Shown piece by piece: positions 38,500-61,639 of a DNA stretch of 64,000 nt (the first letter of the stretch is position 1; every line of letters starts with the position of its first letter). This DNA is from an uncultured virus (IMG/VR IMGVR_UViG_3300011339_000567) (lineage: Duplodnaviria > Heunggongvirae > Uroviricota > Caudoviricetes), in the IMG/VR virus record IMGVR_UViG_3300011339_000567, one strand, 5' to 3'. The translations under genes were made by a program, and so were the position numbers. The notes beneath the pieces are model-generated. The model did not search any database. It was given only the letters and a program-made list of their open reading frames with translations, and was not told where the DNA came from.

Positions 38500-38686
38500 C
38501 TGATTGTTCAACTTTCTGTGCAAGGTCAATTACATAGCGCTCTGCGATAGCCAGACCCTGAATGGTTCCGCAGAGTTTTTGATATTCCTCAAATGAGCGA
38601 CATGCTCCGCTGGCGGCGTCGTCAGCGTAGTTGTTCATGTCTTTGCGTATTTGTTCGCGCAATACGCGTGCGAAGTCTTGAATCAT
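38492..38686 (-). CDS. Hypothetical protein
   Basis: 64 aa between portal and GroES; EEYQKLCGTIQGL. Confidence 0.7.
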   Translation of the reverse strand: MIQDFARVLREQIRKDMNNYADDAASGACRSFEEYQKLCGTIQGLAIAERYVIDLAQKVEQSDE

Positions 38687-41154
38687 TATTTAGCCGGACC
38701 TTTCCTTTGCTGGTTGTTCTGCATCGCCTGTTGGCGACTCTTTGCGATGTCGATGCCCATGCGGACACCCTCTCGTTCTTGGTCGGACTGCAACTTCTTC
38801 TCAGTTTGCGTAGCCTGCTGGCCCGCCTTGAAGCCGTCCAACGCCAGTTTGCCTTCCAGCGCTCTTTCTTTGAGGTCCAACTCGTCCGCCCGGGCGGCGG
38901 CATCGGCGGCAATCTTTTTCTCTTTGAGCGCAACTTCTTGTTGCTTGATCTGCATGTCCTGCTGCTGGAGCTGGAGCACGGGGTCTTGGGCTTGCTGCTG
39001 AGCCTGTTGCTGTGCTTGCTGCGCTTGGCTCTGTTGGAGAACCTGCTGCGCGGCCTGCGCCATCATGGCGGACAGTGCAACCTCGATCTGCGGCGGGAGC
39101 TTCTCGTCTTCCGGTGGCAGGGGGATGCCAAGCTGCTGCTCAATTTTCTGACGGTACGCAAAGCCAACGTGCTCGGCAATGTGCGCCATCATGGCCCCTT
39201 GGATCATCGGTGCCTTGGGGTTCTGGCCGATCAACTGCATGATGATCGGGTCCTGCATCGCGGACATGTGAACCTTGATGTGGGCTTCGTGGTCTTGGTA
39301 CATGAACGCTTTGACCGGCTCGCTCTTGAGCACCATCATGTTCTCGGACACAGGGTCTCTTGGCTTCTGGTCGTCTGGCAGCGGCACGAGCTTGTCGGCG
39401 TTCTTGATGCCCAACACCTCCAGCATGTTGCGGTGCAACAAGGGCAGGTCATAAATCTCAGGGGCCATCTGCGCCATCTGGATGACGGCTTGGTACTGCA
39501 CCACGCGCTGGCTCATGGTTGCCGCGTTGGGGTCCGACACAGGGATGATGTCTACGTGGCGGTAGTCCTCGGCCTTGGCTCTGCGGCCACCACGGTCAGG
39601 CTCGTAGTCGTACGCGGGGTCTGTGTAGTCCCGGATGAGTATGGCCAACAGGTGCAGCTCTTGTTTGAACGCGTAGTGCATACGCGCCTGCACAGCCGAC
39701 ATCACCTTGAGCTGGCGCTCCAGCAGAGCCAGAGTTGTGCCCACCGGGGCGTTGGCCGACATGTCGGCAACCTTCATGTCCGCAGTAGCTGCGAAGCGGC
39801 GACCTTCTTCAACGATGGTGCCCAGCAACTGGAACAAGACCAGCGACGGCTCTTTATATGGCAGCGGCAGGATGTTGTCCCGCAGTGCGCCTGAGCCGAT
39901 GTCTACGTCCCGGAACTCGCCGGGGGCAATCGGAGTGTCATCACCCTTGATCCGAAGTCCGCGAGACTTGAGGCCCCCGGGTAGATTCGATAGTGTCCCG
40001 GCGTCCACGAGCTGGCGCATGATGCTAGTTGCTGACTTGGCAAAGCCCCCGATGAGGTGGAAGAGGCCGAAGCCATACGCACCGAAGCCGGGAATGTATT
40101 GGTAGTGAACGAAGTGCTGGCGCTTGAGCCGCAGGTCATCATCCTCACGCCAGTTGCGTCGAATGGACAGAACATCGTTGGTCCCCTTGATGAGTGTTAC
40201 TACGTACGGCAGCGCGATGCCTGTGGGTTCGCCTTCGTCGTCCTCGTCTTCAAAGCCCTTGAGGTCCAAGTCAACGTGGCACTCCATCAGGATGTAACGG
40301 TCGTCGTTCAGATCACTGAAGCCGGTCTCTTTGTCCTTGGCCTTCTCAATGTTGGTCTGCTCGCGTGTGGGGTCTCCCAGCTCGATGTCACGGTAAAAGC
40401 CCGCCTTCTGGAGCTTGATGATGTCGTTCTTGGTCTTGCGCATGATGTGTGTCAGGCGGTAGCAAGTGTCCATGTCCGTCGTGCCGTACGGCAGGATGAT
40501 GTCTTCTGCGGGCACAAACATCGACACCTGACGCCCCAGATTGGGGTCGTAGTACACCTTCTTGAACGCAGAGCCTGTGGCTGGCAGCGACCACAACATG
40601 CGCTCGTGCTCTGGCCGGAACTCTTTCATCACGTCTGTCAGCTCGTAGTTCATGTCAGCTTCGACACGCTGCGCAGCTTGCTGCTTCTCAGGGGTCTCTT
40701 TGCCCAGAATCTTCGTGCGCACCGGCCCTTGGGCGGGGAACGACTCCGTGATCGCCTCTGACTGGAACCGGACCACGGCCTCGGTAATCATCGGGTGGAA
40801 CACACCAGACGCGCCGTTCCACGGCTCTGTGCGCTCCTCGACCTGCAAGCCCAGCAGCTTCAGCCCTTCCGTGTACGCCTTCTCCCACTCCTTGCGCGAC
40901 TGGCGGTCATTGTCGATGTCTCCCGCCAAGTCCCCGGCCATCGACTCAATGGCACCGGCGTCCATCTCTTCGGCCAGATTGACATCAAAGTCGTTCTCGG
41001 CCTCAACCTTGGCCAACTCGACGGCAAACCCCGGGCCTTCGATGCTCACCGCTTCGGGATCAACAATCTCAATTTCAATGCCCTGCTCGTCCTCGGCCAG
41101 TGCGTCGATGCCCTGTGGTTGCTGAAAGAGTGCTTTGTCGATGTTCGTTGCCAT
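38686..41154 (-). CDS. Portal protein
   Basis: 822 aa directly after TerL; EPW.GA.GV.HP, GSAFKKVYYD, YGFGL.HL.GG, Gln-rich barrel-like C-terminus. Confidence 0.85.
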   Translation of the reverse strand: MATNIDKALFQQPQGIDALAEDEQGIEIEIVDPEAVSIEGPGFAVELAKVEAENDFDVNLAEEMDAGAIESMAGDLAGDIDNDRQSRKEWEKAYTEGLKLLGLQVEERTEPWNGASGVFHPMITEAVVRFQSEAITESFPAQGPVRTKILGKETPEKQQAAQRVEADMNYELTDVMKEFRPEHERMLWSLPATGSAFKKVYYDPNLGRQVSMFVPAEDIILPYGTTDMDTCYRLTHIMRKTKNDIIKLQKAGFYRDIELGDPTREQTNIEKAKDKETGFSDLNDDRYILMECHVDLDLKGFEDEDDEGEPTGIALPYVVTLIKGTNDVLSIRRNWREDDDLRLKRQHFVHYQYIPGFGAYGFGLFHLIGGFAKSATSIMRQLVDAGTLSNLPGGLKSRGLRIKGDDTPIAPGEFRDVDIGSGALRDNILPLPYKEPSLVLFQLLGTIVEEGRRFAATADMKVADMSANAPVGTTLALLERQLKVMSAVQARMHYAFKQELHLLAILIRDYTDPAYDYEPDRGGRRAKAEDYRHVDIIPVSDPNAATMSQRVVQYQAVIQMAQMAPEIYDLPLLHRNMLEVLGIKNADKLVPLPDDQKPRDPVSENMMVLKSEPVKAFMYQDHEAHIKVHMSAMQDPIIMQLIGQNPKAPMIQGAMMAHIAEHVGFAYRQKIEQQLGIPLPPEDEKLPPQIEVALSAMMAQAAQQVLQQSQAQQAQQQAQQQAQDPVLQLQQQDMQIKQQEVALKEKKIAADAAARADELDLKERALEGKLALDGFKAGQQATQTEKKLQSDQEREGVRMGIDIAKSRQQAMQNNQQRKGPAK

Positions 41155-41162: not shown

Positions 41163-42698
41163 TTAATAGTAGGCGGCTACGCGCCCACGGTAAATCTTGT
41201 CGTCTTTCTCATCCGAGTCCAGTGAGATAAACCCGCCCTGCCTGAAACGCAGCAGCGCCTGACTGGTCGTATCCACATAGTCGTCATTCTCGCCGTTGGG
41301 GAACGACGCCACTTCCTCGATGACTTCGCGTGCCCAGCGGGTATCCGGTGCCCAGATAATGCCAGAGGTAAACAAGTCTGCAATTGCGTTGACCCGCACC
41401 ATCTTATCGTTTCCCCGGCTCGGCGTAAACTCTTGCACGGGTATGCCCATCGCCCGCAGCTCCTGTATCAGAGGCCCACCAGCGGCTTTCTTCTCCACGA
41501 GGAACGCGTCTGGCTCCCACTCCTTGTAGTGTTTCAAGGCGGACTGCTTCAACTCGGGAAACGGCATCCTGTCCTTGAACGCGTCCAGCAAGATTACTTG
41601 CGCCGCGTTGTTCTCTTCCTCGTTGTAAAACACGCCCCACGTTGTACACGCACTGTAGTCAGATGTGCTCTTGGTCTCGTGCGCCGTGTCCCAGCTCTGG
41701 ATGATGTACTCACAAGGCGGCGGCTCGTCTGCCTCCCAGATACGCCAGCTCTTCCGGCTGATGATGGCCGACACGTCCGAGGTGGGCTGCTGCATGTACT
41801 GCGCGTTCCAATACCTCGGGTCCATCGATGACTTGGCAGACAGCAGCGAAGTGAGCGGCCACTGCTCCGGCCAGAGCGACTTCTCGTTGTCCGTGCCTTC
41901 GTTGAGGATGGCGGGCAGCTCCACGATCTCCCAGCGCGGGGAGTCCGGGTTCTTGACTTGGTAGTCGATCAGCCGCCCGGTCAGGTCCAGCGGCCCCCAG
42001 CGGGTCATCACCACAATGATCGCGCCATTGGGCATCAGGCGCTGCAACGGGCCTGTCTGGAACCACGACCACGCCGTGTCAAACGCTAGACGGCTGTTGG
42101 CTTTAACGTCCTGCTCAGAGTGCGGGTCGTCGATCAGGAACAGGTCAGCACCCCGTCCGGCCAAGGCTCCCCCCACACCGGCTGCGTAGTATTGTCCCCC
42201 TGCGTCAGTGCTCCATTTGCCTGAAGCCTTCTGATCTTGCGCCAACTTGGTGCCCGGGAACACCGTGTTGTAGTCCTCGTCTTCGAGCAGATTCCTGACC
42301 CTGCGGCCAAAGTCTTCGGACAGGGACGCCGTGTGCGTGCCCATGATGATCTTCTTATTAGGGTAATTACCTAGGAAGTACGCCGGGAACAGGTAGCTCG
42401 AAAACTCAGACTTACCCATACGAGGGGCGATGTTGATGATGACCCGCTTCTTTTTGCCGTCGATCACGTCTTGGAAAATCTTGGACAGCTTGCGGTGGTG
42501 AGGCCCGACCTTGAAGCCGGGGTATACCCGCTTGGAAAAGTCGATCATGTTAAGGCGCGAGTTCTGTAGGGACCGCCTGCGTTCGCGCTCTTCTAACATC
42601 TCCACCAACTCAATCTTGGCCGCTTTGGTCATCGTCGGCAACGCTGCGCGTATGGCCTTGACCTCTTCCGGTTTCAAGTTGAGCGCGTTAAGATTCAT
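41163..42698 (-). CDS. terL: Terminase large subunit
   Basis: Walker A APRMGKS, Walker B LIDDPH, VMTRW, nuclease SWDTA...FPNGENDDYVD. Confidence 0.95.
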   Translation of the reverse strand: MNLNALNLKPEEVKAIRAALPTMTKAAKIELVEMLEERERRRSLQNSRLNMIDFSKRVYPGFKVGPHHRKLSKIFQDVIDGKKKRVIINIAPRMGKSEFSSYLFPAYFLGNYPNKKIIMGTHTASLSEDFGRRVRNLLEDEDYNTVFPGTKLAQDQKASGKWSTDAGGQYYAAGVGGALAGRGADLFLIDDPHSEQDVKANSRLAFDTAWSWFQTGPLQRLMPNGAIIVVMTRWGPLDLTGRLIDYQVKNPDSPRWEIVELPAILNEGTDNEKSLWPEQWPLTSLLSAKSSMDPRYWNAQYMQQPTSDVSAIISRKSWRIWEADEPPPCEYIIQSWDTAHETKSTSDYSACTTWGVFYNEEENNAAQVILLDAFKDRMPFPELKQSALKHYKEWEPDAFLVEKKAAGGPLIQELRAMGIPVQEFTPSRGNDKMVRVNAIADLFTSGIIWAPDTRWAREVIEEVASFPNGENDDYVDTTSQALLRFRQGGFISLDSDEKDDKIYRGRVAAYY

Positions 42699-43359
42699 CG
42701 TCGGTGGGGGCTGGAGGTTCTTCAGAAGTCAGTGAGTGCTCACTTTGATCTGACTGGTCTGGCGTGCTTGGCTCGACGTCCGTGATGTCCGCAGTGGTCT
42801 CTGCGCTGGTGGCGTCCACGTCGATGGTATTCAGGAGGAGGTCGAGCTTGTCTTGGAGCTTCTTGTCGATCTCGGCGTCCGTCAGATCGGTCTTCTTGAC
42901 CTCCAGCCTGTCCGTGAACAGCGCCACTTCCGTCACGCGCCCGAGCATCTCGATGGCTTTGAGCCTGATCCGAGCGTCGGGGTGGTTGGTTTCCTCAATG
43001 ATCTTGGCGACCGCCATGCCGCGCATCTGCTTGGCCTGCTCCACAAACTCCCAGTCGTATGCAGACAGCAGTGTCACCAGATGCCTGACGGACTCCGGCG
43101 TTTTGAGCAGTGTCAACTGGGTTTTGGTCTCGGCTGGGGTCGCATTGTTGGCCAGCGCTGCAAAAACGGTGCGTGCTGCCTTGGCCTCGGCCTCTTGCAG
43201 AATCTTTTGGTCGTCTTCGACGCCAAGTTTTTCCAACCACTTGGTCGTATTGACCTGTGCGTTGAGTATTTGGTCGGGCGTTGCCCTGTCCAGCCCGGAC
43301 ACGTCCTTGCCGGTGGCTTCAACCACTGGCGGCTCAAATTCTAACAAGTGATCTAACAT
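42688..43359 (-). CDS. Probable terminase small subunit
   Basis: Directly upstream of TerL; RIRLKAIEMLGRVTEVALFTDR. Confidence 0.65.
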   Translation of the reverse strand: MLDHLLEFEPPVVEATGKDVSGLDRATPDQILNAQVNTTKWLEKLGVEDDQKILQEAEAKAARTVFAALANNATPAETKTQLTLLKTPESVRHLVTLLSAYDWEFVEQAKQMRGMAVAKIIEETNHPDARIRLKAIEMLGRVTEVALFTDRLEVKKTDLTDAEIDKKLQDKLDLLLNTIDVDATSAETTADITDVEPSTPDQSDQSEHSLTSEEPPAPTDDES

Positions 43360-43371
43360 GCGCGTAGTACC

Positions 43372-43400
43372 TTGCGGACTCGGAGCCTTTAATGTACACT
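43372..43400 (+). promoter_or_regulatory. Sigma70-like promoter driving a short non-coding transcript
   Basis: TTGCGG-17 nt-TACACT. Confidence 0.6.
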
Positions 43401-43405
43401 ACTTT

Positions 43406-43491
43406 TTGAGTGGTGTCTGCGTTTTCGTAGTCATTGCTTCTCCTTGATGTACGCAAATACATTTTTACCCGGCTTGTCCGGGTATTTTTTT
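43406..43491 (+). ncRNA. Candidate antisense sRNA with anti-Shine-Dalgarno/anti-start seed
   Basis: Lies between promoter and terminator; contains GTAGTCATTGCTTCTCCTTGATGT, complementary to plus-arm RBS/ATG regions. Confidence 0.55.
43466..43491 (+). terminator. Intrinsic terminator
   Basis: TACCCGG-CTTGT-CCGGGTA followed by T7; no U-tract on the minus strand. Confidence 0.8.
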
Positions 43492-43500
43492 GGCTGTGTA

Positions 43501-43516
43501 TGTCTAACATTAGACA
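43501..43516. promoter_or_regulatory. Palindromic operator type B, copy 1
   Basis: TGTCTA-ACAT-TAGACA; related copies at 50544 and 61199. Confidence 0.55.
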
Positions 43517-43762
43517 AGGTTTCTTGGAATTTTTGCAAAATTTTGTGGTGGATTTTGCGTTTGACAAAAATGAGGATTATCGGAGGGGAATAGTGTTCAT
43601 GTGGGACGGCCACGCTGCCCCATATATGGCTTGGTGGGGGGTGGGTGGGGGTCAAAGTAACCCAAAATGCCCCATATTCTGCCCCTCAGAGGCCGATCAA
43701 ACAGGGGTTTCCACACAATAGGTTTAGCAGTAGGGGATTCGCTCTTACTGCTACATCAACCA

Positions 43763-43779
43763 CGGGTCACAGTGACCCG
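43763..43779. repeat. 17-bp palindrome type A, copy 1
   Basis: CGGGTCAC-A-GTGACCCG. Confidence 0.9.
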
Positions 43780-43798
43780 AACCTAAGAGGTATTTCAA

Positions 43799-44182
43799 AT
43801 GACTACAGTAAACAAAGCCGCCGCCTTTACAGCCCTGAACAAGTTCGCCACTGCACGGGTGCAACTCATAGCGGGGCTACGGGATGCAGGCTACACGCTT
43901 GAGACGGCACGAGGTGTCGTTATCGAATGGGCATGCGACAAGGTGGGCTCAGGCAGTAAGGGCTTCAAGGTCAATGATGAGACGGGCAAGGTCACGCTGG
44001 TGTCCGGCCATGCCAAGTACGAGACGGCCAAGACAGTGGTGCGTGATGTGATGCTGATGCTGGCCGGAACGACACGGCGTCAGGTGAGCGCTCGCACGGA
44101 AGTTGACCCTGTGGCTCAGGCGCTCAAGGCGCTGTCTAAGTTGACCCCTGCACAGCTTCGCAAAGTGCTGGCGGCTTTCTGA
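43799..44182 (+). CDS. First early gene, hypothetical
   Basis: 127 aa with AGAGGT RBS; bracketed by type A palindromes. Confidence 0.75.
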   Translation: MTTVNKAAAFTALNKFATARVQLIAGLRDAGYTLETARGVVIEWACDKVGSGSKGFKVNDETGKVTLVSGHAKYETAKTVVRDVMLMLAGTTRRQVSARTEVDPVAQALKALSKLTPAQLRKVLAAF

Positions 44183-44184
44183 TT

Positions 44185-44201
44185 CGGGTCACAGTGACCC
44201 G
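44185..44201. repeat. 17-bp palindrome type A, copy 2
   Basis: CGGGTCACAGTGACCCG followed by T5. Confidence 0.9.
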
Positions 44202-44290
44202 TTTTTCTGTCAACCGGTGCAGGCGCGGGGCTTGGCCGGTGTTTCTTTTCGTGTCAATCGCCGCCACCGAGCGGCATTTTTATTGGAGAT

Positions 44291-44536
44291 ATGACTGTGC
44301 CTAAATTCAAAACCCCTAGCGGCGAACTAACCGCCTATGCACTTGCCTGCGGCTATATCGAGCGCAAAGAAACCCCCACCCTACGCCTTGACCTCTGGCA
44401 CGAGGGCGCGCTCTACCATGTCCGAGCGCACGACTTCGCAGAGCACACCCGCCTTTTCTGGGAGAGCTTCGACACCCTCCGCGCTGCCCGCGCTTTCTAC
44501 GCCAAGCAAATCCCCACCCTTTTCCCTGCCGCCTAA
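44291..44536 (+). CDS. Hypothetical protein
   Basis: 81 aa, FKT.SGELTAYALACGYIE; GGAG RBS. Confidence 0.7.
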   Translation: MTVPKFKTPSGELTAYALACGYIERKETPTLRLDLWHEGALYHVRAHDFAEHTRLFWESFDTLRAARAFYAKQIPTLFPAA

Positions 44537-44553
44537 CCCCACGAAAGCACCCC

Positions 44554-44694
44554 ATGACCCAAAACGAATTCCTAGCCTTGTGCCTTGAGCACTGCGTAGA
44601 CCCGAGCCTTGCGCTTGAAAACCCTGCCATTGTCGAGGCGCTCAAAGCCAGAGACGCCCAAGCCGTAGCAAACATCCTCACCAACGAATTCTGA
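44554..44694 (+). CDS. 46-aa hypothetical protein
   Basis: MTQNEFLALCLEHCVDPSLALEN...LTNEF; below the ORF-track cutoff. Confidence 0.6.
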   Translation: MTQNEFLALCLEHCVDPSLALENPAIVEALKARDAQAVANILTNEF

Positions 44695-44703
44695 AAACAC
44701 ACC

Positions 44704-44925
44704 ATGAAACAGCACATCAAACATGTCGGCGTCTTGTCTCTGCCCTGCGGGGACTTTGATTTGTTCGAGCACTACTTCAACAACAGTCGCAACTACAAGA
44801 TCACATCGGTCGTCCCCGTGGGCAGACCGACCTGCGGCATCTCGTTCACATGCGAGGCCGCATTCGAACGCTGGCTGGAGCGCAACATGACTCCCGTGCA
44901 GTTGGGTCTTTTCGGGTCACAGTGA
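44704..44925 (+). CDS. Hypothetical protein
   Basis: 73 aa; ends QLGLF (clamp-binding-like); stop lies inside palindrome copy 3. Confidence 0.55.
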   Translation: MKQHIKHVGVLSLPCGDFDLFEHYFNNSRNYKITSVVPVGRPTCGISFTCEAAFERWLERNMTPVQLGLFGSQ

Positions 44926-44929
44926 CCCG
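44913..44929. repeat. 17-bp palindrome type A, copy 3
   Basis: CGGGTCACAGTGACCCG. Confidence 0.9.
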
Positions 44930-44940
44930 CAGACAACAAG

Positions 44941-45287
44941 GTGCGATAAGACTCGGTACGGATTTGAGATAAGACTCGTACAAAATTGAGATAAGACTAA
45001 GTGTCCAGACCGTCCCTTCTTATCGCACTTTGTGCTAAGCACCCAGTACAGCCGCAACCCGCATGGATGCTGGGTTCTTGGGGGTAAGTGTCCGCGCCCT
45101 CTATCTAAATCTTTATATATAATATATATTAGAGAGTGTGTATATGCGTGTGCTCGGGCTTTTGTTTTTACTTAAAGGCTTTGGCTATGGCTAGTTGTCT
45201 GTTGGATAGTGAGCTGGACACTTTTTCAAGAAACCTAGCATTCATGCGGCCTGCGAGGTGTCCAGACGCTTAGCACAACATGCGATA
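44941..45287. other. Origin-like non-coding region: iterons, AT-rich core, long imperfect inverted repeat
   Basis: GATAAGACT x3 at 44945/44968/44990; nested inverted repeats 45021-45105 vs 45205-45287; TATATATAATATATAT core. Confidence 0.55.
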
Positions 45288-45327
45288 CAATTCCCACTCT
45301 GTCCAAAACTCGGTATGAAAAGGAGAT

Positions 45328-46086
45328 ATGACTATGGATTTCCCCAAATCCTACCTGCGAATGAGCGAACGCACCCTACGCAAACACCTTGCAAAACGCA
45401 AACTTCCCTTGGGCTACGCTGAAAACCTCATATCTCAGGTGATGTCCGAGAGGCACAAGAAGTTCGCGCATCTCGCCCGAGATACGCAACACGCCCGATT
45501 GTGGGGCGACCTCATAGCCCCTGCCAAGGCCGAACGCCGCATCGTGCAGAGGATGTTGAGTTTAGATTTAGCCAATAACAGCCCCGAACGCACCCTTGCA
45601 CTGGAGGCTTATCTCATGGTGCTTGACGCCATCATCGGGCGGCTCACGCTCAAGGCCAACACAGCAGAAGCAACGCCGAGGCAAGTGGCCGAGGAGACAA
45701 ATGTCCCCAACAAAGGCGAGCACTGGGTGGACTGGATGCCGCCCAAGAAGATAGCGCTCATCAAGGAGTACTTCGCCCAGATACCCTACATCAAGGGCGT
45801 GAGGCAGAAGACCCCGTTCGAGCGCCGGTGGCCCACGACACAACACGCCATACACAAGAAGCGCCTGATTGAGCGCACCGACAAGGAGCTTGCCATCCTT
45901 GAGCGCCGCATGGCCGTGGAGCTTGCCGATGCTAAGTTGACCGACACGCACATCTTCAAACAGCAGGAGATCAACGACATGCGTATCCAGATCAGCAAGA
46001 TGCAAGCGGCCATGCACACCATCAAACTACTGCGCCCGACTGACCTCGTGCCGGTGACATGGCACGGCATCGACCTGCCGGACTGA
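45328..46086 (+). CDS. Hypothetical protein
   Basis: 252 aa, AAGGAG RBS; PNKGEHWVDWMP motif. Confidence 0.75.
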   Translation: MTMDFPKSYLRMSERTLRKHLAKRKLPLGYAENLISQVMSERHKKFAHLARDTQHARLWGDLIAPAKAERRIVQRMLSLDLANNSPERTLALEAYLMVLDAIIGRLTLKANTAEATPRQVAEETNVPNKGEHWVDWMPPKKIALIKEYFAQIPYIKGVRQKTPFERRWPTTQHAIHKKRLIERTDKELAILERRMAVELADAKLTDTHIFKQQEINDMRIQISKMQAAMHTIKLLRPTDLVPVTWHGIDLPD

Positions 46087-46103
46087 CGAATGTCAATTTG
46101 TTT

Positions 46104-46120
46104 CGGGTCACTGTGACCCG
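46104..46120. repeat. 17-bp palindrome type A, copy 4
   Basis: CGGGTCAC-T-GTGACCCG followed by T6. Confidence 0.9.
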
Positions 46121-46134
46121 TTTTTTATCGGTTA

Positions 46135-46156
46135 GCGGTCTGCCGTCTCAGACCGC
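46135..46156 (+). promoter_or_regulatory. Conserved-loop hairpin, copy 1
   Basis: GCGGTCTG-CCGTCT-CAGACCGC just before the AAGGAG RBS. Confidence 0.65.
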
Positions 46157-46173
46157 ATTTTAAGGAGAAAGCA

Positions 46174-46848
46174 ATGAAAACCACACTGAACAAAATCCGG
46201 GCGCAGCACCCTTGCGAAGACGGCTGGAAGAAGCTGCTTGCTTATTTAGGTAAGACCAAGCCAGACGACGAGCCGCTAGCCATCGTAACTATTCTTGACA
46301 GTAACGGACTGGATGACGCGCTCTGGTGCCTGCGGGCAGTCGAGGGTTACGATAAAGAAATGCGCTTGTTCGCGGTGCGGTGCGCCCGACGTGTACAGTA
46401 CTTAATGACTGACCCGCGCAGCATCGCAGGGGTAGACGTTGCCGAACGCTTCGCAAACGGTGAAGCCACTACGGAGGAGTTGACTGCGGCGGGGGATGCC
46501 GCGTGGGCTGCGGCGTGGGCTGCGGCGGGGGATGCTGCGTTGGCTGCTGCGTGGGCTGCTGCGAGGGTTGCGGCGGGGGCTGCTGCGAGGGTTGCGGCGG
46601 GGGCTGCTGCGAGGGATGCTGCGAGGGTTGCCGCGTGGGCTGCGGCGTGGGCTGCGGCGGGGGATGCTGCGTTGGCTGCTGCGTGGGCTGCTGCGAGGGT
46701 TGCGGCGGGGGCTGCTGCGAGGGATGCTGCGTGGGCTGCTGCGTGGGCTGCTGCGAGGGTTGCTGCGAGGGCTGCTGCGAGGGCTTCTGCGTTGGCTGTA
46801 CAAGAAGCAGACTTGCGTCAAATGTGTAACAAAGGAGAAGTGAAATGA
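46174..46848 (+). CDS. Hypothetical protein with Ala-rich AAxx tetrapeptide repeats
   Basis: MKTTLNKIR..PC.DGWKKLL...SNGLDDALWCLR; AAWA/AARV/AAGD repeats. Confidence 0.8.
   Translation: MKTTLNKIRAQHPCEDGWKKLLAYLGKTKPDDEPLAIVTILDSNGLDDALWCLRAVEGYDKEMRLFAVRCARRVQYLMTDPRSIAGVDVAERFANGEATTEELTAAGDAAWAAAWAAAGDAALAAAWAAARVAAGAAARVAAGAAARDAARVAAWAAAWAAAGDAALAAAWAAARVAAGAAARDAAWAAAWAAARVAARAAARASALAVQEADLRQMCNKGEVK
46487..46790 (+). repeat. 12-nt tandem coding repeat
   Basis: GCTGCG-NNNGNT units with a higher-order ~120-nt duplication. Confidence 0.85.
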
Positions 46849-47309: not shown

Positions 47310-47341
47310 GCTTTCAGTAAGTAAAACATCAAGGAGTTTTT

Positions 47342-50559: not shown

Positions 50560-50587
50560 ATACCCGATTTCAATCAAGGAGAAAACA

Positions 50588-56061: not shown

Positions 56062-58028
56062 GCGCCCCCTACGACCAGATAGTAAGCATTGACTTTGAGA
56101 CAGTGTGGGACCGCAAGACCGGCTACTCACTGTCCATGATGACAACCGAGGAGTACATACGCCATGAGAGATTCCACGCGTTCGGAGCTTGCGTCCATGT
56201 ATACGGAAGCGACGAGCCAATTGAGTGGGTACGAGGACGAGACCTATCTGAGTACCTTCAGCAGTACGACTGGGGACGAACCGCCATCCTTGCTCATAAC
56301 GCACAGTTCGACGTATCCATCCTTGGATGGGAATACGACATCCACCCCTGTTTCATCTTCGATACCCTGTCAATGGCGCGAGCTTTGCGTGGCGTTGAGG
56401 TTGGCAACAGTCTCGCCCGACTTGCAGCAGCTTTTGGTCTTCCCGCCAAAGGGACAGCCGTATACAGTACCGATGGTCTGGCCGAGCTGGACGCGAACAT
56501 GGAACATGAACTTGCAGAGTATTGCAAACACGACGTATATCTATGCGAACAAATCTTCCAACGGCTATCACGAGGCTACCCAGCGAAGGAACTTAGGCTT
56601 ATAGACATGACGCTCAAGATGTACACGAACCCGGTGCTACAACTTGACAGTGCTATGTTGGTCGATGCACTACATGAAGAAAAGGAAAAACGTGAAGCAC
56701 TACTACATCGGCTCGGCGTGGACGAGGCTGTACTGGCATCGAACCCTAAATTTGCAGAAGCACTGGAAGCGCTCGGCATACCGCCGCCGCGCAAAATCAG
56801 TAAGACAACCGGCAAGAGCACGCTTGCTCTCGCTAAGAATGACGCTATGTTCCAAGCCCTCCTCAACGGAGCCAATGAAGACGTGGCGCATCTATGCGAA
56901 GCGAGACTGGCGGTCAAATCAACTACTGAACGTACGCGTGCTCAAAGATTTCTTGACATCAGCAAGCGCGGAGCGCTGCCGGTCCCGCTCAGCTATTACG
57001 GGGCCAGCACGGGTAGGTGGACGGCCAGCAAAGGCAGCGCCATCAATATGCAGAACCTCAAACGAGGCTCGTTCCTACGCAAAGCAATTATGGCTCCCGA
57101 GGGGCACCAGCTGGTCGTTGGGGACTTATCTCAGATTGAACCGCGAGTTCTTGCATGGCTTTCGGATTACGAAGGTATGCTCAACATCTTCAAGGGAGGT
57201 GGTGACCCTTACGCGGCCTTCGGGGCGCAGATGTTCAATATCCCGGGCCTTACGAAAGAGTCTCATCCCGACCTTCGCCAGTCTGCGAAGTCAGCTTTAC
57301 TTGGATGCGGGTACGGTCTCGGTTGGGCTTCGTTTGCCGCTCAGCTACTCGTCGGTTTCCTCGGTGCTCCACCCGTGCGCTACACCAAGGAGTTTGCCAA
57401 GACGCTGGGAGTGACTGCCAATACCGCTGAGAAGTTCTTAGACTGGGATGACAACGTAAAGAAGCTCGAAGAGATTCCGCACATCTGCACCATGACGGAG
57501 CTGGTCATCCACTGTCTCGCAGCCAAGGCCATCATCGACAAGTACCGCCTGACTGCCGAGCCTGTGGTGGCGCTGTGGAACATGTTCGGGCACCTGATCC
57601 AGTACAGCCTGTACGAAGGCAAGGAGTACACCCACAAGTGCGTGACCTTCAAGAAGGGCGAGATCGTGCTGCCTTCTGGCATGAGCCTGCTATATCCTGA
57701 CCTGAAACCGGGGAAAGATGAAAAAGGCAGGTTGCAGTGGACATACGGCGCAGATGAGACTAAACTGTATGCAGGAAAAATAACCAACAATGTCACGCAG
57801 GGCGTAGCGAGATGCGTGATGACTGATGGGATGCTGAGAACCGCGAAGAGGTACTTCGTGGCTGGAACCGTGCATGACGAGCAGATTGCTGTTGTGCCTG
57901 ATGAGGACGTTGCTGACGCTAAGACATGGGTTTTGGCGCAGATGACTATGGAGCCGAAGTACATGCCGGGCATACCACTGGCCGCTGACGGAGGCGCACA
58001 CAAGCGTTATGGCTTGGCTAAAAATTAA
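56058..58028 (+). CDS. DNA polymerase, family A, with 3'-5' exonuclease
   Basis: IDFET, AHNAQFD, YCKHDV; TGRW..NMQNL, DLSQIEPR, R..AK...LG.GYG, TVHDE; TTG start after AAGGAG. Confidence 0.93.
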   Translation: MSAPYDQIVSIDFETVWDRKTGYSLSMMTTEEYIRHERFHAFGACVHVYGSDEPIEWVRGRDLSEYLQQYDWGRTAILAHNAQFDVSILGWEYDIHPCFIFDTLSMARALRGVEVGNSLARLAAAFGLPAKGTAVYSTDGLAELDANMEHELAEYCKHDVYLCEQIFQRLSRGYPAKELRLIDMTLKMYTNPVLQLDSAMLVDALHEEKEKREALLHRLGVDEAVLASNPKFAEALEALGIPPPRKISKTTGKSTLALAKNDAMFQALLNGANEDVAHLCEARLAVKSTTERTRAQRFLDISKRGALPVPLSYYGASTGRWTASKGSAINMQNLKRGSFLRKAIMAPEGHQLVVGDLSQIEPRVLAWLSDYEGMLNIFKGGGDPYAAFGAQMFNIPGLTKESHPDLRQSAKSALLGCGYGLGWASFAAQLLVGFLGAPPVRYTKEFAKTLGVTANTAEKFLDWDDNVKKLEEIPHICTMTELVIHCLAAKAIIDKYRLTAEPVVALWNMFGHLIQYSLYEGKEYTHKCVTFKKGEIVLPSGMSLLYPDLKPGKDEKGRLQWTYGADETKLYAGKITNNVTQGVARCVMTDGMLRTAKRYFVAGTVHDEQIAVVPDEDVADAKTWVLAQMTMEPKYMPGIPLAADGGAHKRYGLAKN

Positions 58029-58039
58029 AGGAGAAGTAA

Positions 58040-58357
58040 ATGGCAACAGTTAGAGCACCGATACCGCGCAAGGTGCGCGTGGGTAACAAGCAGTATTCAA
58101 TCGAGATCGTGGAGGCCATGCTGGAGAAGCGAGTCATGGGACGCATCAGTTACACGGCGCAGACAATCAAGCTGGGCAGGCGCAGCAATGTGACGCAGAA
58201 AGTCTTTCCGCCCGAGCAAGTACAGGAGTCGTTCTGGCATGAAGTCACTCACGCCATCCTGCACGACATGGGGCGTGACACGCTGAACCGAGACGAGAAG
58301 TTTGTTACCGAGTTTGCACACCGGCTTACCAAGGCCATCAACTCAGCGAGATTTTGA
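58040..58357 (+). CDS. Small HExxH metallopeptidase-like protein
   Basis: FWHEVTHAIL...DEKFV. Confidence 0.7.
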   Translation: MATVRAPIPRKVRVGNKQYSIEIVEAMLEKRVMGRISYTAQTIKLGRRSNVTQKVFPPEQVQESFWHEVTHAILHDMGRDTLNRDEKFVTEFAHRLTKAINSARF

Positions 58358-59588: not shown

Positions 59589-59603
59589 GAACATGGAGAA
59601 GCA

Positions 59604-61166
59604 ATGGAAATCATCGAGAACAAGGCGCTGCTCTTGCGTACGCGCAGCCCTGAGAAGTATCAGGTAATTCCGAGAAGTAAGATAGTTGAAGAGCACGATG
59701 ACGGATCAAGTTCTGTAGCAGTGTTCTGGGGGTTGGATGAAGTCAGAGTTCTCAAGAACCTCGGCGTCAAGAACTTGCCATCGCCGATCACACGCAACTA
59801 CGACTGGCCCGGACGCTACACGCCGATGGAGCACCAGATCGAGACGGCATCGTTCCTGACGCTTAACCGCAAGGCGTTTGTGTTCAGTGAACCCGGCACA
59901 GGCAAGACGCTCAGTGCGCTGTGGGCTGCTGACTATCTGATGCAGCGTGGGGAGATCAGGCGCGTGCTTATCCTGTGCCCGTTGTCGATCATGCAGTCCG
60001 CTTGGATGGGGGACATCAGCAACAGCGTCATCCACCGCTCGGCCATCATTGCCCACCACCCGCAAGCATCGCGCCGCATCGAGATGATCCAGAAGAACTA
60101 CGATATCGTCATCACCAACTACGAGGGCTTGAATCTGATCGCCAGTGAGATCGTGGCCAACGGCAAGTTTGATCTGGTCATCGTTGATGAGGCCAATGCG
60201 TACAAGACCATGAGCACCAAGCGCTGGAAGTCCCTATCAACAATCATCAAGCCCCAAACTTTTTTGTGGATGATGACAGGCACGCCAGCGTCTCAGTCTC
60301 CGGTCGATGCGTATGGCTTGGCCAAGCTGGTGAACCCGGACGGCGTGCCAAAGTTTTTTACCGCATGGCGCGACAAAGTGATGAACAAGATCACCATGTT
60401 CAAGTGGGCACCGAAGCCTGACGCAAAGAACCTCGTGCATGAAGCGCTGCAACCGGCCATCAGGTTCACCAAGGCGCAGTGTCTGGACTTGCCGCCGGTC
60501 GTTACAGTAACGCGTGAAGTGGCGCTCACACCGCAGCAGGCCAAGTACTACAACTTGCTCAAGGACAGCATGATGATCCATGCGGCGGGGGAGACAATCA
60601 GCGCGGTCAATGCCGCAGCTAGCGTGTCCAAGCTGCTCCAGATCAGTTGTGGTGCGGCCTACACGGACGACCATGAGGTAGTAGAGTTTGATGCCAGCCC
60701 AAGGCTTAGCGTCATTGAAGAAATCCTTGAGGAGACTGACCGCAAGGTTCTGATCTTCGCGCTGTTCCGCTCCAGCATTGACGCGCTGCACACGCACCTG
60801 CTCAAGAAGGGCATCAGCGCGGAGTGCATACACGGCGGCGTTACAGCGCCCAAGCGTGCTGACATCATCAAGCGCTTTCAAACCGAAGCCAACCCACGAG
60901 TCCTTGTGATGCAACCGCAAGCATCGGCACACGGGATTACCCTAACTGCTGCGGACACTGTGGTGTTCTACGGGCCGTTGATGTCTGTTGAGCAGTACGT
61001 GCAGTGCATTGCACGCGCTGACAGGAAGGGTCAGAACTCTGACAAGGTAACGGTCATTCACATCGAGGGTAGCCCCATCGAGAAGAAAATGTTCAAAGCC
61101 CTGCAAAGTAATGTAAGCAGTCACTCACTTTTGACTGAAATGTTCAACATGGAAATTAAAAAATAA
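59604..61166 (+). CDS. SNF2-like SF2 helicase
   Basis: EPGTGKT, IVDEA, MTGTP, KLLQIS, HGITLT, Q..AR.DRKGQ. Confidence 0.9.
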   Translation: MEIIENKALLLRTRSPEKYQVIPRSKIVEEHDDGSSSVAVFWGLDEVRVLKNLGVKNLPSPITRNYDWPGRYTPMEHQIETASFLTLNRKAFVFSEPGTGKTLSALWAADYLMQRGEIRRVLILCPLSIMQSAWMGDISNSVIHRSAIIAHHPQASRRIEMIQKNYDIVITNYEGLNLIASEIVANGKFDLVIVDEANAYKTMSTKRWKSLSTIIKPQTFLWMMTGTPASQSPVDAYGLAKLVNPDGVPKFFTAWRDKVMNKITMFKWAPKPDAKNLVHEALQPAIRFTKAQCLDLPPVVTVTREVALTPQQAKYYNLLKDSMMIHAAGETISAVNAAASVSKLLQISCGAAYTDDHEVVEFDASPRLSVIEEILEETDRKVLIFALFRSSIDALHTHLLKKGISAECIHGGVTAPKRADIIKRFQTEANPRVLVMQPQASAHGITLTAADTVVFYGPLMSVEQYVQCIARADRKGQNSDKVTVIHIEGSPIEKKMFKALQSNVSSHSLLTEMFNMEIKK

Positions 61167-61214: not shown

Positions 61215-61234
61215 AACAAAAACAGGAGAAGCCC

Positions 61235-61639
61235 ATGACTACAACAGTCATACCACTCGACAAGTTAGCGAAGGTCTACCGAAAGATTCGCAGCGAAATC
61301 GAAACCCTGACCAGAGAGTACGACACGAAAGTGGAGTTGCTCAAGGCCACGCAAGACGACATCAAGCATGCAATGAAAGACCAGATGCAAGCGCTTGGTG
61401 TCACATCCGTCAACACGCCGCAAGGCACTGTTGTCATGTCGATCAAGACACGCTACTCAACATCGGACTGGGATTCGTTCAAGACCTTTGTGACGCAGCA
61501 TGACGCGCTCGACCTGTTCGAGAAACGAATTGCTCAGACCAACATGAAACAGTTCCTCGAAGAAAACCCCGGCGTTCTGCCACCCGGACTCAACTCCAAC
61601 GCAGAATACGACATCAGTGTAAGAAAGCCGTCCAAATGA
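61235..61639 (+). CDS. Conserved replication-module protein (Gam/gp157-like coiled coil)
   Basis: KLAKVYRKIR...SVNTPQGTV...DWDSF...LFEKRIAQ; AGGAG RBS. Confidence 0.7.
   Translation: MTTTVIPLDKLAKVYRKIRSEIETLTREYDTKVELLKATQDDIKHAMKDQMQALGVTSVNTPQGTVVMSIKTRYSTSDWDSFKTFVTQHDALDLFEKRIAQTNMKQFLEENPGVLPPGLNSNAEYDISVRKPSK

What the first reader, a model, noticed from the sequence alone, without database searches (positions are those of the whole stretch)
43372..43491. Candidate phage sRNA antisense to the shared RBS/start signature of its own early/middle genes
Seen in sequence: a sigma70-like promoter (TTGCGG-17-TACACT, 43372-43400) and a plus-strand-only intrinsic terminator (43466-43491) bracket ~85 nt with no plus-strand ORF, at the switch point of the two arms. 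The core GTAGTCATTGCTTCTCCTTGATGT (43427-43450) is the reverse complement of ACATCAAGGAGAAGCAATGACTAC. That matches several plus-arm initiation regions: GGAGAAGCAATG (59595-59606, helicase, 12/12); ACATCAAGGAG (47326-47336, 11/11); AGGAGAAGC-cc-ATGACTAC (61224-61242); AAGGAGAA-a-GCAATGA (from 46162); ATCAAGGAGAA (50573-50583); TCAAGGAGAAG (54185, 54585); AATGACTAC (43798-43806). Inference: one trans-acting sRNA could translationally shut off much of the early/replication arm, and possibly host mRNAs. Alternative: on the minus strand the same bases form an RBS plus an 11-aa mini-ORF (MTTKTQTPLKK, 43399-43434) upstream of terS.
Basis: partly seen in the sequence, partly recalled or inferred. Interest (0 to 1): 0.85.

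Follow-up and report, generated by a model that had tools for sequence, protein, structure and literature searches.

The report
Conserved phage small RNA mirroring early-gene start sites
Between the packaging genes and the replication genes of this uncultivated water phage lies a likely gene for a short non-coding RNA, kept in about a hundred related phages, whose exposed core is the mirror image of the ribosome-landing sites of the phage's own early genes and so probably switches their translation off.

Summary
Window 43372-43491 (+) holds a -35/-10 pair (TTGCGG-17-TACACT), a predicted 84-nt RNA (43408-43491) and an intrinsic terminator.

The same unit sits next to the terS-position gene in every relative that could be examined, down to about 42% terS identity. 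Kept features are the promoter hexamers and their spacing, three stem-loops, the block CAUUGCUUCUCC and a GC hairpin plus U-run. On 70 distinct sequences 94.4% of cells pair and the covariation score is 0.568 against 0.151 in shuffles (0 of 500). All 52 sequences tested fold better on this strand.

The minus-strand mini-ORF is not a conserved gene: 7 of 52 lack any start codon and the peptides are unrelated.

In 6 of 6 near-complete genomes the cognate seed pairs better with start regions of the replication arm than of the structural arm (significant in 5; p=0.069 in G003). The SNF2 helicase start region matches its own phage's seed variant in 19 of 20 genomes.

Weak points: no expression data, a weak promoter by consensus, an underpowered phylogeny-corrected test, and only three conserved targets.

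Verdict: a new phage sRNA family, most likely a trans-acting anti-start-site repressor.

The parts
43372..43377 (+). -35 hexamer TTGCGG of the sRNA promoter
   Evidence: A TTGnnn hexamer lies 16-18 nt upstream of the -10 in about 48 of 52 distinct relatives (TTGCGG 14, TTGCGT 12, TTGTGA 7, TTGAAC 6 and others). Spacer is 17 nt in 38, 18 in 13, 16 in 1.
43395..43400 (+). -10 hexamer TACACT, inside the near-palindrome AATGTACACT (43391-43400)
   Evidence: In 52 of 52 distinct relatives the hexamer is TACACT (28), TATACT (15), TATATT (6) or TATAGT (3), so T1, A2 and T6 are always kept. The opposite strand also keeps TACACT/TACATT in 48 of 52, so the promoter may be bidirectional and also serve the terS-position gene.
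43408..43491 (+). Predicted 84-nt sRNA, from the G located 8 nt after the -10 to the end of the U-run
   Evidence: MFE -27.4 kcal/mol, z -4.48, 0 of 200 shuffles as stable; the opposite strand gives -18.6, z -3.13. G at the assumed +1 in 45 of 52. All 52 fold better in this orientation, by 8.5 kcal/mol on average. Start and ends are inferred, not measured.
43408..43439 (+). Stem-loop 1: the 5' end pairs, with several G.U pairs, with CAUUGCUU
   Evidence: In 50 of 52 relatives the first 9 nt pair (5 or more bp) with the block just 5' of CUCC. Where the block changes, the 5' arm changes with it: CAUGCUUU with GGCAUG in the L073 clade and CGUUUAC with GUAGAUG in L084 (read output).
43432..43445 (+). 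Anti-start-site seed: the conserved block CAUUGCUUCUCC (43432-43443) and the unpaired stretch CUCCUU (43440-43445)
   Evidence: These are the best conserved columns of the 52-sequence alignment. It is the reverse complement of SD + spacer + AUG (GGAGAAGCAAUG). CUCCUU is unpaired in the MFE and centroid structures.
43446..43463 (+). Stem-loop 2
   Evidence: All 6 of 6 modelled pairs show changes on both sides across 70 distinct sequences; 89.4% of cells are paired.
43466..43491 (+). Intrinsic terminator: 7-bp GC-rich hairpin plus U7
   Evidence: One search lists it on the + strand only. 99.0% of cells are paired and 3 of 6 pairs show double-sided changes. A hairpin plus T-run of at least 5 was found in all 67 relatives screened.
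59595..59606 (+). Start region of the SNF2-family helicase gene (59604-61166): best conserved candidate target
   Evidence: 12 of 12 complementarity. Full-length cofold interaction -14.8 kcal/mol. The class of this start region matches the cognate seed class in 19 of 20 genomes. Pfam SNF2-rel_dom and Helicase_C.
58027..58042 (+). Start region of a conserved 105-aa gene after the DNA polymerase gene: candidate target
   Evidence: Mean duplex energy -18.8 kcal/mol over 6 genomes, the best of 41 ortholog groups.
61223..61242 (+). Start region of a conserved 134-aa gene after the helicase gene: candidate target
   Evidence: Mean duplex energy -18.7 kcal/mol over 6 genomes. Weak Pfam DUF7307 / Sipho_Gp157 matches, below cut-off.
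46160..46176 (+). Start region of gene 46174-46848: strongest predicted target in the window
   Evidence: Duplex -23.2 kcal/mol; cofold -18.0 kcal/mol.
43399..43434 (-). 11-codon mini-ORF MTTKTQTPLKK on the strand opposite the sRNA; not a conserved coding gene
   Evidence: ATG in 43 of 52, no start codon in 7, GTG in 1, TTG in 1. Lengths are 2-32 aa and the peptides are unrelated between clades.
42688..43359 (-). Gene in the small-terminase position, always next to the sRNA gene and divergent from it
   Evidence: It lies upstream of the TerL gene (PHROG 38). It has no PHROG or Pfam hit of its own, so 'terS' rests on position only. It was the bait that brought in the relatives.

Best explanation
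Window 43372-43491 (+) is a self-contained gene for a small non-coding RNA of about 84 nt, belonging to an uncultivated aquatic tailed phage.

How it is built. Host sigma70-type RNA polymerase would start at about G43408 from TTGCGG-17-TACACT and stop at the hairpin plus U7 at 43466-43491. The RNA folds into stem-loop 1, an unpaired CUCCUU, stem-loop 2 and the terminator.

How it likely works. The conserved block CAUUGCUUCUCC(UU) is the exact antisense of a Shine-Dalgarno sequence, spacer and AUG. The RNA would pair in trans with the start regions of the phage's own replication-arm (early/middle) mRNAs. The most conserved candidates are the SNF2-family helicase gene and the two small genes at 58040 and 61235. 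Many small early genes sharing the signature AAGGAGAAG/GGAGAAAGCA-AUG are further candidates. Covering both SD and start codon would block ribosome entry. That would make it an RNA counterpart of the protein-based early-gene shut-off by T4 RegA and RegB. The structural (late) arm lacks the signature and would be spared.

Shown here: the conserved gene anatomy, the strand, structural covariation, the arm-specific complementarity, and seed/start-region variants that go together.

Inferred: transcription, the exact ends, pairing in vivo, the direction of the effect (repression), its timing, and any need for Hfq.
For: (1) Gene anatomy is conserved. 80 IMG/VR loci with terS relatives of 99-48% identity were fetched. 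69 had at least 320 nt upstream. 2 were dropped by my seed regex (L065, L069; the covariance model found both). The remaining 67 all carry promoter, seed, stem-loop 2 and terminator, giving 52 distinct sequences.

(2) Promoter. The -10 is TACACT, TATACT, TATATT or TATAGT in 52 of 52. The spacer is 17 or 18 nt in 51 of 52 and varies in sequence.

(3) Structure. Covariance model R1 finds one hit per genome, always beside terS. On 70 distinct hits 94.4% of cells pair against 69.7% in shuffles. 173 cells changed on both sides against 54.7 +/- 5.0 (0 of 500). The covariation score is 0.568 against 0.151 (0 of 500), and 0.068 or less when partners are slid.

(4) Strand. 52 of 52 fold better on this strand, by 8.5 kcal/mol on average. 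For the window, z is -4.48 against -3.13.

(5) Reach. An independent pattern scan brought in 80 loci. The 31 convincing model hits (26.4 bits or more, GC about 0.5) are exactly the 31 loci with a terS homologue (42-88% identity) beside the hit.

(6) The module stays with terS. It does so even where tRNA genes separate it from the early promoter.

(7) Targets.
- Cognate seed against start regions: the replication arm pairs better than the structural arm in 6 of 6 genomes (p=1.5e-6, 0.0054, 0.069, 0.0024, 0.0061, 0.0017). A 16S-tail control differs significantly in only two of the six (p=0.029 and 0.002; 0.06-0.37 in the other four).
- Seeds with shuffled flanks (CUCC kept) reach the observed mean energy in 0-2 of 300.
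- A structure-aware cofold gives the same result.

(8) Seed and helicase start region go together. There are four classes: GGAGAAGCAATG, GAGAAGCAAATG, GGAGAAAGCATG and GAGAGCAATGC. They coincide in 19 of 20 genomes. Cognate mean energy is -23.14 against -17.75 +/- 0.94 for permuted pairings, 0 of 20000.

(9) Loss of the mini-ORF start. In 6 of the 7 sequences without a start codon (four clades: L017/L019/L024, L064, L076, L084) the change is CAU to CGU; the seventh, L079, has CCU. L270 shows the same CGU change. It keeps a G.U wobble with a target AUG but destroys the minus-strand ATG.
Against: - No RNA-level evidence of any kind was obtained.
- The promoter is weak by consensus (7 of 12 positions) and the simple scan did not list it.
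- Half of the conserved block is sequestered in stem-loop 1. CUUCUCC is fully unpaired in the MFE of only 5 of 52 sequences, and its mean unpaired probability is 0.43-1.0.
- Among ortholog groups present in at least 4 genomes the arms do not differ significantly (-11.87 against -10.89 kcal/mol, p=0.136). The arm effect therefore comes mostly from small, poorly conserved early genes, some of them tandem paralogues.
- The cross-cognate test on whole arms is mixed: ranks 1, 2, 1, 2, 6, 1 of 6.
- Covariation of the 5' flank appears in the window and G003/G004 only.
- L311 is a counter-example: its helicase start region changed while the seed did not.
- The permutation test ignores relatedness. On strongly supported branches of the terS tree only 2 independent contrasts exist. 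Both are concordant, but p=0.5.
- The minus-strand ATG is present in 43 of 52. That is also what a translated upstream start site would predict.
- My gene calls and start choices are crude.
Confidence: 0.55

Rival explanations
1. The RNA gene is real, but its main job is not shutting off the phage's own early genes. It might act on host mRNAs with strong SD sequences (host shut-off), stabilise or activate its targets, or titrate an RNA-binding protein. On this reading the match to early start regions is secondary.
For: The gene anatomy is well supported, but every functional step is inferred. An anti-SD core pairs with any strong SD. The conserved-ortholog test is not significant. If the promoter fires early, repressing early genes seems counter-productive.
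Against: The conserved part reaches beyond the SD into spacer and AUG. It follows phage-specific start-region variants in 19 of 20 genomes and matches the G006 early stereotype GGAGAAAGC in 11 of 24 GGAG-bearing start regions. A 16S-like anti-SD control separates the arms much less: p=0.06-0.37 in four genomes, 0.029 and 0.002 in two. The host is unknown, so host targets could not be examined.
Confidence: 0.2
2. The functional element is on the minus strand. A stereotyped start site (AAGGAGAAGCAAUG) with a short upstream ORF would head the late (terS) operon, or serve as an operator for a RegA-like translational repressor protein. The + strand promoter and terminator would then be incidental.
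For: ATG sits 4-6 nt after GGAG in 43 of 52 sequences. In the L073 clade the ORF is in frame with terS (output). In some relatives tRNA genes on that strand could send transcripts through the region. A shared protein operator would also make start regions and this site change together.
Against: - 7 of 52 have no start codon, and the peptides are unrelated and 2-32 aa long.
- The conserved terS-direction promoter candidate lies downstream of this start site, so the terS mRNA would not contain it.
- The U-run and the G.U-dependent stems make sense only on the + strand.
- This reading leaves the conserved -35/-10, their spacing and the G at +1 unexplained.
Confidence: 0.1
3. The transcript is a by-product. 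A symmetric (bidirectional) -10 element that serves terS also fires the other way, and the terminator merely insulates the early promoter. On this reading the RNA has no function in trans.
For: The -10 lies in a near-palindrome, and both strands keep TAnnnT hexamers with TTGnnn at 17-18 nt. Bidirectional bacterial promoters that produce non-coding divergent RNAs are common (PMC10268837, passages read).
Against: A by-product would not keep a near-invariant 12-nt block, three stem-loops with compensatory changes and a length of 72-130 nt across terS divergence down to about 42%. It would also not track helicase start-region variants.
Confidence: 0.1
4. The RNA acts in cis as a leader or antitermination element of the put type for transcription running on into the early arm.
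For: Two stem-loops lie directly after a promoter and point toward the early genes. The architecture recalls HK022 put; this comparison is recalled, not tested.
Against: A strong terminator follows at once, and a separate, better early promoter with a palindromic operator comes after it. In several relatives tRNA genes on the opposite strand lie between the terminator and the early genes. The single-stranded CU block and its match to start regions would have no role.
Confidence: 0.05

Closest known systems
c4 antisense RNA of phages P1/P7, with P22 sar and lambda OOP
   Same: These are small phage-encoded RNAs that block translation of a phage mRNA by pairing around its ribosome binding site. 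They are structure-dependent, with the complementary bases exposed (PMC12197685, passages read).
   Different: Those RNAs control one gene (ant, cII) in temperate phages as part of immunity or the lysis-lysogeny decision, and sar and OOP are cis-antisense. Here the phage shows no integrase or repressor among the 30 + arm proteins scanned. The targets are distant, 3-18 kb away, and apparently many. There is no sequence or Rfam relation.
CU-rich anti-RBS sRNAs of Betaproteobacteria: Burkholderia double-hairpin 'toxic' sRNAs (Rfam RF02278) and Neisseria NmsR
   Same: They are short, terminator-ended sRNAs with unpaired CU-rich stretches complementary to ribosome binding sites of many mRNAs. 55-80% of their predicted interactions fall at gene starts (PMC5688073, passages read).
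   Different: Those are chromosomal, occur in several copies and target metabolic genes. This one is phage-borne and single-copy. Its complementarity runs on through spacer and AUG. The RF02278 match is 20.2 bits against a gathering score of 50, so it is not a member.
T4 RegA (translational repressor) and RegB (endoribonuclease cutting GGAG)
   Same: Both give post-transcriptional shut-off of a set of early mRNAs through their start regions while late mRNAs are spared. RegA competes with ribosomes on about 30 mRNAs. RegB cuts GGAG in early Shine-Dalgarno sequences (PMC3014915, passages read).
   Different: Those are proteins. Here the proposed effector is an RNA and recognition is by base pairing. 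The likeness is in function only, with no homology.
Lambda LPR1/PreS and other recently described phage-encoded trans sRNAs
   Same: It is a phage-encoded base-pairing sRNA acting in trans during the lytic cycle (bioRxiv 10.1101/2024.10.31.621285, abstract and outline only).
   Different: According to its abstract that RNA regulates host genes such as dnaN. The present RNA matches the phage's own genes best.

Membership tests
Any Rfam 15 family (best: RF02837 anti-hemB, RF00110 RybB, RF00057 RyhB, RF02278 Betaproteobacteria toxic sRNA, RF02236 asX2) | Score at or above the family's gathering threshold | tested here: not met
   20.2-22 bits against thresholds of 40-70. The matches cover the terminator end.
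Stand-alone trans-encoded base-pairing sRNA | Own promoter | tested here: met
   The -35/-10 hexamers, a 17/18-nt spacer and G at +1 are conserved in 52 distinct relatives while the spacer sequence varies. This is sequence evidence only; the promoter is weak by consensus.
Stand-alone trans-encoded base-pairing sRNA | Rho-independent terminator defining a short transcript | tested here: met
   GC hairpin plus a U-run of at least 5 in all 67 screened; 99.0% of cells paired, with compensatory changes.
Stand-alone trans-encoded base-pairing sRNA | Conserved, accessible seed complementary to targets elsewhere in the genome | tested here: met
   The block CAUUGCUUCUCC is the most conserved part and CUCCUU is unpaired. 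Its 5' half lies in a G.U-rich stem. Complementarity to replication-arm start regions exceeds the controls.
Stand-alone trans-encoded base-pairing sRNA | The RNA is expressed | not testable with these tools
Stand-alone trans-encoded base-pairing sRNA | Hfq or ProQ dependence | not testable with these tools
   The host is unknown. A U-tail and the UU(C)A linker before the terminator resemble Hfq modules, but this is a recalled likeness only.
Cis-antisense RNA (sar/OOP type) | A functional transcript or gene on the opposite strand overlaps the RNA | tested here: inconclusive
   The only opposite-strand feature is the non-conserved mini-ORF. The candidate terS promoter would start downstream of it. 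Whether any minus-strand transcript crosses 43400-43490 is unknown; tRNA genes in some relatives could supply one.
Leader peptide / upstream ORF | Conserved start codon and conserved peptide or length | tested here: not met
   no start codon in 7 of 52, lengths of 2-32 aa, peptides unrelated.
Bidirectional sigma70 promoter (Warman et al. type) | Overlapping -10 elements on both strands giving divergent starts 7-25 bp apart | tested here: inconclusive
   Both strands keep TAnnnT hexamers that overlap by 2 bp, which would put the starts about 23 bp apart, and both have TTGnnn at 17-18 nt. The common geometry is 18 bp (PMC10268837). No start sites were measured.

The most novel reading that the evidence does not exclude
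A whole family of uncultivated aquatic phages runs an RNA-based temporal switch. One sRNA, transcribed back-to-back with the late (packaging) operon, recognises a stereotyped SD-spacer-AUG 'address label' carried by the helicase gene and dozens of early genes, and silences them together. Label and sRNA co-evolve (variants GGAGAAGCAAUG, GAGAAGCAAAUG, GGAGAAAGCAUG, GAGAGCAAUGC). Each phage lineage would thus have its own private translational code for 'early', an RNA analogue of T4 RegA/RegB and a possible basis for cross-interference between co-infecting relatives.
Probability: 0.35. Interest if true: 0.85.

Novelty: new variant of a known kind. Interest (0 to 1): 0.72.

Why it matters
Few trans-acting sRNAs are known from lytic phages, and I know of none (from recall and the four searches below) that addresses a regulon of the phage's own early genes through a shared start-site signature.

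If true, three things follow:
- It shows a compact way for a phage without its own RNA polymerase to shut off early and replication genes after transcription.
- It explains why early genes of these phages carry unusually uniform ribosome binding regions.
- It gives a sequence rule (the seed) that predicts the regulon in each related phage.

The family is large: more than 100 IMG/VR contigs carry it, many of them short fragments. Its nearest cultured TerL relatives (about 50% identity) are aquatic phages. It would therefore add a regulatory RNA class to environmental phage genomics, where non-coding genes are almost never annotated.

My literature searches listed no description of such an RNA in this group. 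That is not proof that none exists.

Tried and rejected
- RNA evidence: the look-up of sequencing runs for window 41200-46200, kind rna. No RNA holder was listed.
- blastn of 42600-44300 against cultured phage records: no match.
- The window's own assembly is not held. The nearest record is a 14.5-kb IMG/VR fragment, identical over the region.
- Earlier findings of the scan: none on record.
- RNAalifold on a plain MAFFT alignment gave no structure, because stems of different length were misaligned. This was solved with a covariance model.
- Alignment A3 still held about 9 spurious rows. It was replaced by A4, which holds 70 true hits.
- The pattern scan of IMG/VR also returned chance matches. 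49 of 80 loci had no terS beside them, and those I read were AT-rich antisenses of ordinary gene starts. They were not counted as family members.
- The mini-ORF as a conserved peptide: rejected.
- Second copies of the sRNA: none in the window or in five near-complete relatives.
- Temperate lifestyle as the context (immunity RNA): no integrase or repressor among 30 + arm proteins in Pfam. The structural arm was not scanned for these.
- L268 (helicase 69% identity): a weak model hit of 16 bits with a different seed. It was left out as uncertain. G027 (L296) gave no hit.
- The first gene caller, without arm constraint, lost many small genes and was replaced. My caller mis-set the helicase start in the window and chose the upstream in-frame start for terS in G002 and G006, which produced artefactual energies of -35 and -86 kcal/mol. 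These were ignored.
Full report
WHAT IS THERE

The window is a tailed-phage genome with two divergent arms. The minus arm (2030-43359) holds structural and packaging genes: TerL 41163-42698 and portal 38686-41154 (PHROGs). The plus arm starts at 43799. It holds many small genes and replication genes: DNA polymerase 56058-58028, an SNF2-family helicase 59604-61166, a PD-(D/E)XK nuclease and NinX. No integrase or repressor was seen among 30 plus-arm proteins. The nearest cultured relatives by TerL, at about 50% identity, are Phage DSL-LC04 and Pelagibacter phages HTVC027P and HTVC023P. There is no DNA-level match among cultured phage records.

The finding lies in the 439-nt gap between the gene in the terS position (42688-43359, minus) and the first plus-arm gene (43799).

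CHECK OF THE OBSERVATION

Every sequence statement is correct:
- TTGCGG at 43372-43377, a 17-nt spacer, TACACT at 43395-43400.
- A 7-bp GC-rich hairpin at 43466-43484 followed by T7. It qualifies as a terminator only on the + strand.
- The core 43427-43450 as the reverse complement of an SD-spacer-ATG.

The listed matches at plus-arm gene starts are all real. GGAGAAGCAATG occurs only at 43432-43443 (-) and at the helicase start, 59595-59606 (+). CAAGGAGAAG occurs 4 times against 0.05 expected.

By consensus alone the promoter is weak, and the simple scan did not list it.

RELATIVES DECIDE THE QUESTION

The terS-position protein brought in 80 IMG/VR loci of 99-48% identity. Of these, 69 had a complete N-terminus and at least 320 nt upstream. 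2 were dropped by my seed pattern and later recovered by the covariance model. The remaining 67 gave 52 distinct sequences. Read on the strand of the proposed RNA, all of them show the same order of parts.

- Promoter. A -35 of the form TTGnnn in about 48 of 52. A spacer of 17 nt (38), 18 (13) or 16 (1), variable in sequence. A -10 of TACACT, TATACT, TATATT or TATAGT in 52 of 52.
- Start. A G located 8 nt after the -10 in 45 of 52.
- Stem-loop 1. It is variable in size, and the 5' end pairs with the conserved block in 50 of 52.
- Seed. The block CAUUGCUUCUCC, holding the best conserved columns.
- Stem-loop 2. A short second stem-loop with many different sequences.
- Linker. A UU(C)A linker.
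- Terminator. A GC-rich hairpin with a U-run.

RNA lengths are 72-130 nt.

A covariance model of seed, stem-loop 2 and terminator (R1) finds exactly one convincing hit per record, always beside terS. On 70 distinct hits:
- 94.4% of cells pair, against 69.7% in shuffles.
- 173 cells changed on both sides, against 54.7 +/- 5.0 (0 of 500).
- The covariation score is 0.568 against 0.151 (0 of 500), and at most 0.068 with slid partners.
- All six pairs of stem-loop 2 show double changes.

The alignment was fitted to the model, which favours the structure. The slid-partner control keeps that bias, and the structure still stands out.

The strand is clear. All 52 sequences fold more stably in this orientation, by 8.5 kcal/mol on average, helped by G.U pairs. 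The window RNA has z -4.48 against -3.13 for its complement.

A separate pattern scan of IMG/VR added 31 further members with terS identity down to about 42%. These were exactly the loci that have terS next to the hit. The other 49 of the 80 loci fetched had no terS beside them, and the ones I read were chance antisenses of ordinary gene starts.

In several relatives tRNA genes on the opposite strand are inserted between the terminator and the early promoter, while the RNA module stays with terS. It is therefore a self-contained unit, not a leader of the early operon.

THE MINI-ORF ALTERNATIVE

On the minus strand an ATG follows GGAG in 43 of 52 sequences. 7 have no start codon, 1 has GTG and 1 has TTG. 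ORF lengths range from 2 to 32 codons and the peptides are unrelated between clades.

In 6 of the 7 sequences without a start codon (four clades: L017/L019/L024, L064, L076, L084), and also in L270, the change is CAU to CGU in the RNA; the seventh, L079, has CCU. This keeps a G.U wobble with a target AUG but turns the minus-strand ATG into ACG. That asymmetry favours RNA pairing over coding.

The candidate terS-direction promoter shares the near-palindromic -10 region. It keeps TACACT/TACATT in 48 of 52, mostly with a TTGCAC-like -35. It would start downstream of the mini-ORF, so terS mRNA would not contain it. No start sites were measured.

WHAT THE RNA MATCHES

With crude gene calls, plus-arm start regions in the window carry GGAGAA in 17 of 46 and GGAGAAG in 12 of 46. 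The minus arm has 0 of 52 for both. Ten or more contiguous WC/GU pairs with 43425-43452 occur in 14 of 47 plus-arm and 0 of 51 minus-arm start regions.

I fetched five near-complete relatives. In all six genomes the cognate seed (9 nt + CUCC + 6 nt) pairs better with the replication arm than with the structural arm (p=1.5e-6, 0.0054, 0.069, 0.0024, 0.0061, 0.0017). A probe resembling the 16S tail separates the arms significantly in only two of the six (p=0.029 and 0.002; 0.06-0.37 in the others). Seeds with shuffled flanks reach the observed mean energy in 0-2 of 300. The extension beyond the canonical SD is therefore what matters.

Full-length cofolding, which charges for opening stem-loop 1, gives the same result: window -8.03 against -4.38 kcal/mol, p=4.2e-6; G003 p=0.001; G006 p=0.027.

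Early start regions are stereotyped within a genome. In G006, 11 of 24 GGAG-bearing start regions read GGAGAAAGC, the exact complement of that phage's GCUUUCUCC.

THE HELICASE

The helicase start region is the best conserved match. I paired seed and helicase start region in 20 genomes. Four seed classes occur, and the helicase start region belongs to the same class in 19 of 20:
- A: GGAGAAGCAATG
- B: GAGAAGCAAATG, with one extra A/U
- C: GGAGAAAGCATG
- D: GAGAGCAATGC

L311 is the exception. G002 pairs with one mismatch and two wobbles.

For 14 distinct pairs the cognate mean is -23.14 kcal/mol against -17.75 +/- 0.94 for permuted pairings, 0 of 20000. That test ignores relatedness.

On a terS tree of the 20 genomes the seed class changes 6 times and the start-region class 7 times. 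Only 2 independent contrasts lie on strongly supported branches. Both are concordant, but p=0.5; there are 6 contrasts on all branches. The co-variation is suggestive, not proven.

Two further conserved candidates are the small genes at 58040 and 61235, with mean energies of -18.8 and -18.7 kcal/mol over six genomes.

RESULTS AGAINST THE READING

- There are no RNA data.
- Among 41 ortholog groups the arms do not differ significantly (p=0.136). 'Much of the arm' therefore rests on small, fast-evolving genes, some of them tandem paralogues whose junctions repeat the motif.
- The whole-arm cross-cognate ranks are 1, 2, 1, 2, 6, 1.
- Flank co-variation appears only in the window and G003/G004.
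- Part of the seed is held in stem-loop 1.
- The minus-strand ATG is usually present.

MECHANISM PROPOSED

Host polymerase makes a short, stable RNA. Its CU-rich core pairs with SD, spacer and AUG of the helicase and other early mRNAs and blocks initiation. Late genes lack the signature.

The shared -10 region could couple the RNA's synthesis to late-operon transcription, which would give it the timing of a shut-off factor. This last step is speculation.

COMPARISON WITH WHAT IS KNOWN

The RNA works like the RBS-blocking phage RNAs c4 and sar (PMC12197685, passages). It also works like the CU-rich anti-RBS sRNAs of Burkholderia and Neisseria (PMC5688073, passages). In effect it would resemble T4 RegA and RegB (PMC3014915, passages).

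It belongs to no Rfam family: the best score is 22 bits against thresholds of 40-70. Four literature searches listed nothing on such an RNA in this phage group.

VERDICT

This is a real, conserved, previously undescribed phage sRNA gene (about 0.85). Its action as an anti-start-site repressor of the phage's own early genes is the best-supported reading (0.55 for the whole chain) and is open to simple reporter tests.

Noticed in passing
window 43501-43516 and downstream to about 43545: A perfect palindrome TGTCTAACATTAGACA lies directly after the sRNA terminator. GTCTA-N5-TAGACA (or GTCAA-N5-TTGACA) is kept in most relatives and is followed about 18 nt later by TATAAT-like sequence. It is probably the early promoter, with an operator over its -35. 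The binding protein is unknown.
   Followed up: partly
window 43560-43600 and 43628-43653: Two further blocks are conserved across distant relatives: TTTGACAAAAATGAGGATTATCGGAGGGGAATAGTGTTCAT and the G-rich GGCTTGGTGGGGGGTGGGTGGGGGTC. Both lie upstream of the first early gene. Their function is unknown; it could be an origin, a packaging site, a structured RNA or a G-quadruplex.
   Followed up: no
window 43391-43400: The near-palindrome AATGTACACT (AGTGTACACT or AGTGTATACT in relatives) offers -10 hexamers on both strands, each with TTGnnn at 17-18 nt. This may be a bidirectional promoter that drives the sRNA and the terS/late operon back to back.
   Followed up: partly
L036 2647-2816, L042 2782-2857, L047 2571-2644, L060 2765-2839: In some relatives tRNA genes (Pro and His; Asn; Met) lie on the terS strand between the early promoter and the sRNA terminator. 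They end within a few bases of the terminator hairpin, so tRNA and sRNA genes converge. The window itself has no tRNA gene.
   Followed up: partly
window 53335-54798: A run of small tandem genes (52-121 aa) has nearly identical junctions of the form ...AAACT(C/T)AAGGAGAAGA(A)CACATGA. Each stop overlaps the next start, and the upstream protein ends in ...KLKEKNT. These look like paralogues that multiply the sRNA-complementary motif.
   Followed up: no
record G007 (locus L042), helicase at C1:41370-43793: The helicase homologue is matched in two pieces (residues 1-201 and 193-519) about 840 nt apart, inside one 812-aa open frame. This looks like an in-frame insertion, possibly an intein.
   Followed up: no
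loci L073, L074, L077, L078, L082, L083: In this clade the upstream ATG of the mini-ORF is in frame with terS, 25 codons upstream. terS might therefore start there in these phages, and the sRNA would then be antisense to its start region.
   Followed up: no
window 46174-46848: The strongest predicted target encodes a 224-aa protein whose C-terminal half is an Ala/Trp-rich repeat of the form AAWAAAGDAALAAAWAAARVAAGAAAR. It matches PHROG 18326, of unknown function.
   Followed up: no
window 61210-61222 and orthologous sites in G002-G006: TTAGACA, the same as the operator half-site and -35 of the early promoter, is conserved about 20 nt upstream of the start of the gene after the helicase gene in all six genomes. 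This may be an internal promoter or operator.
   Followed up: no
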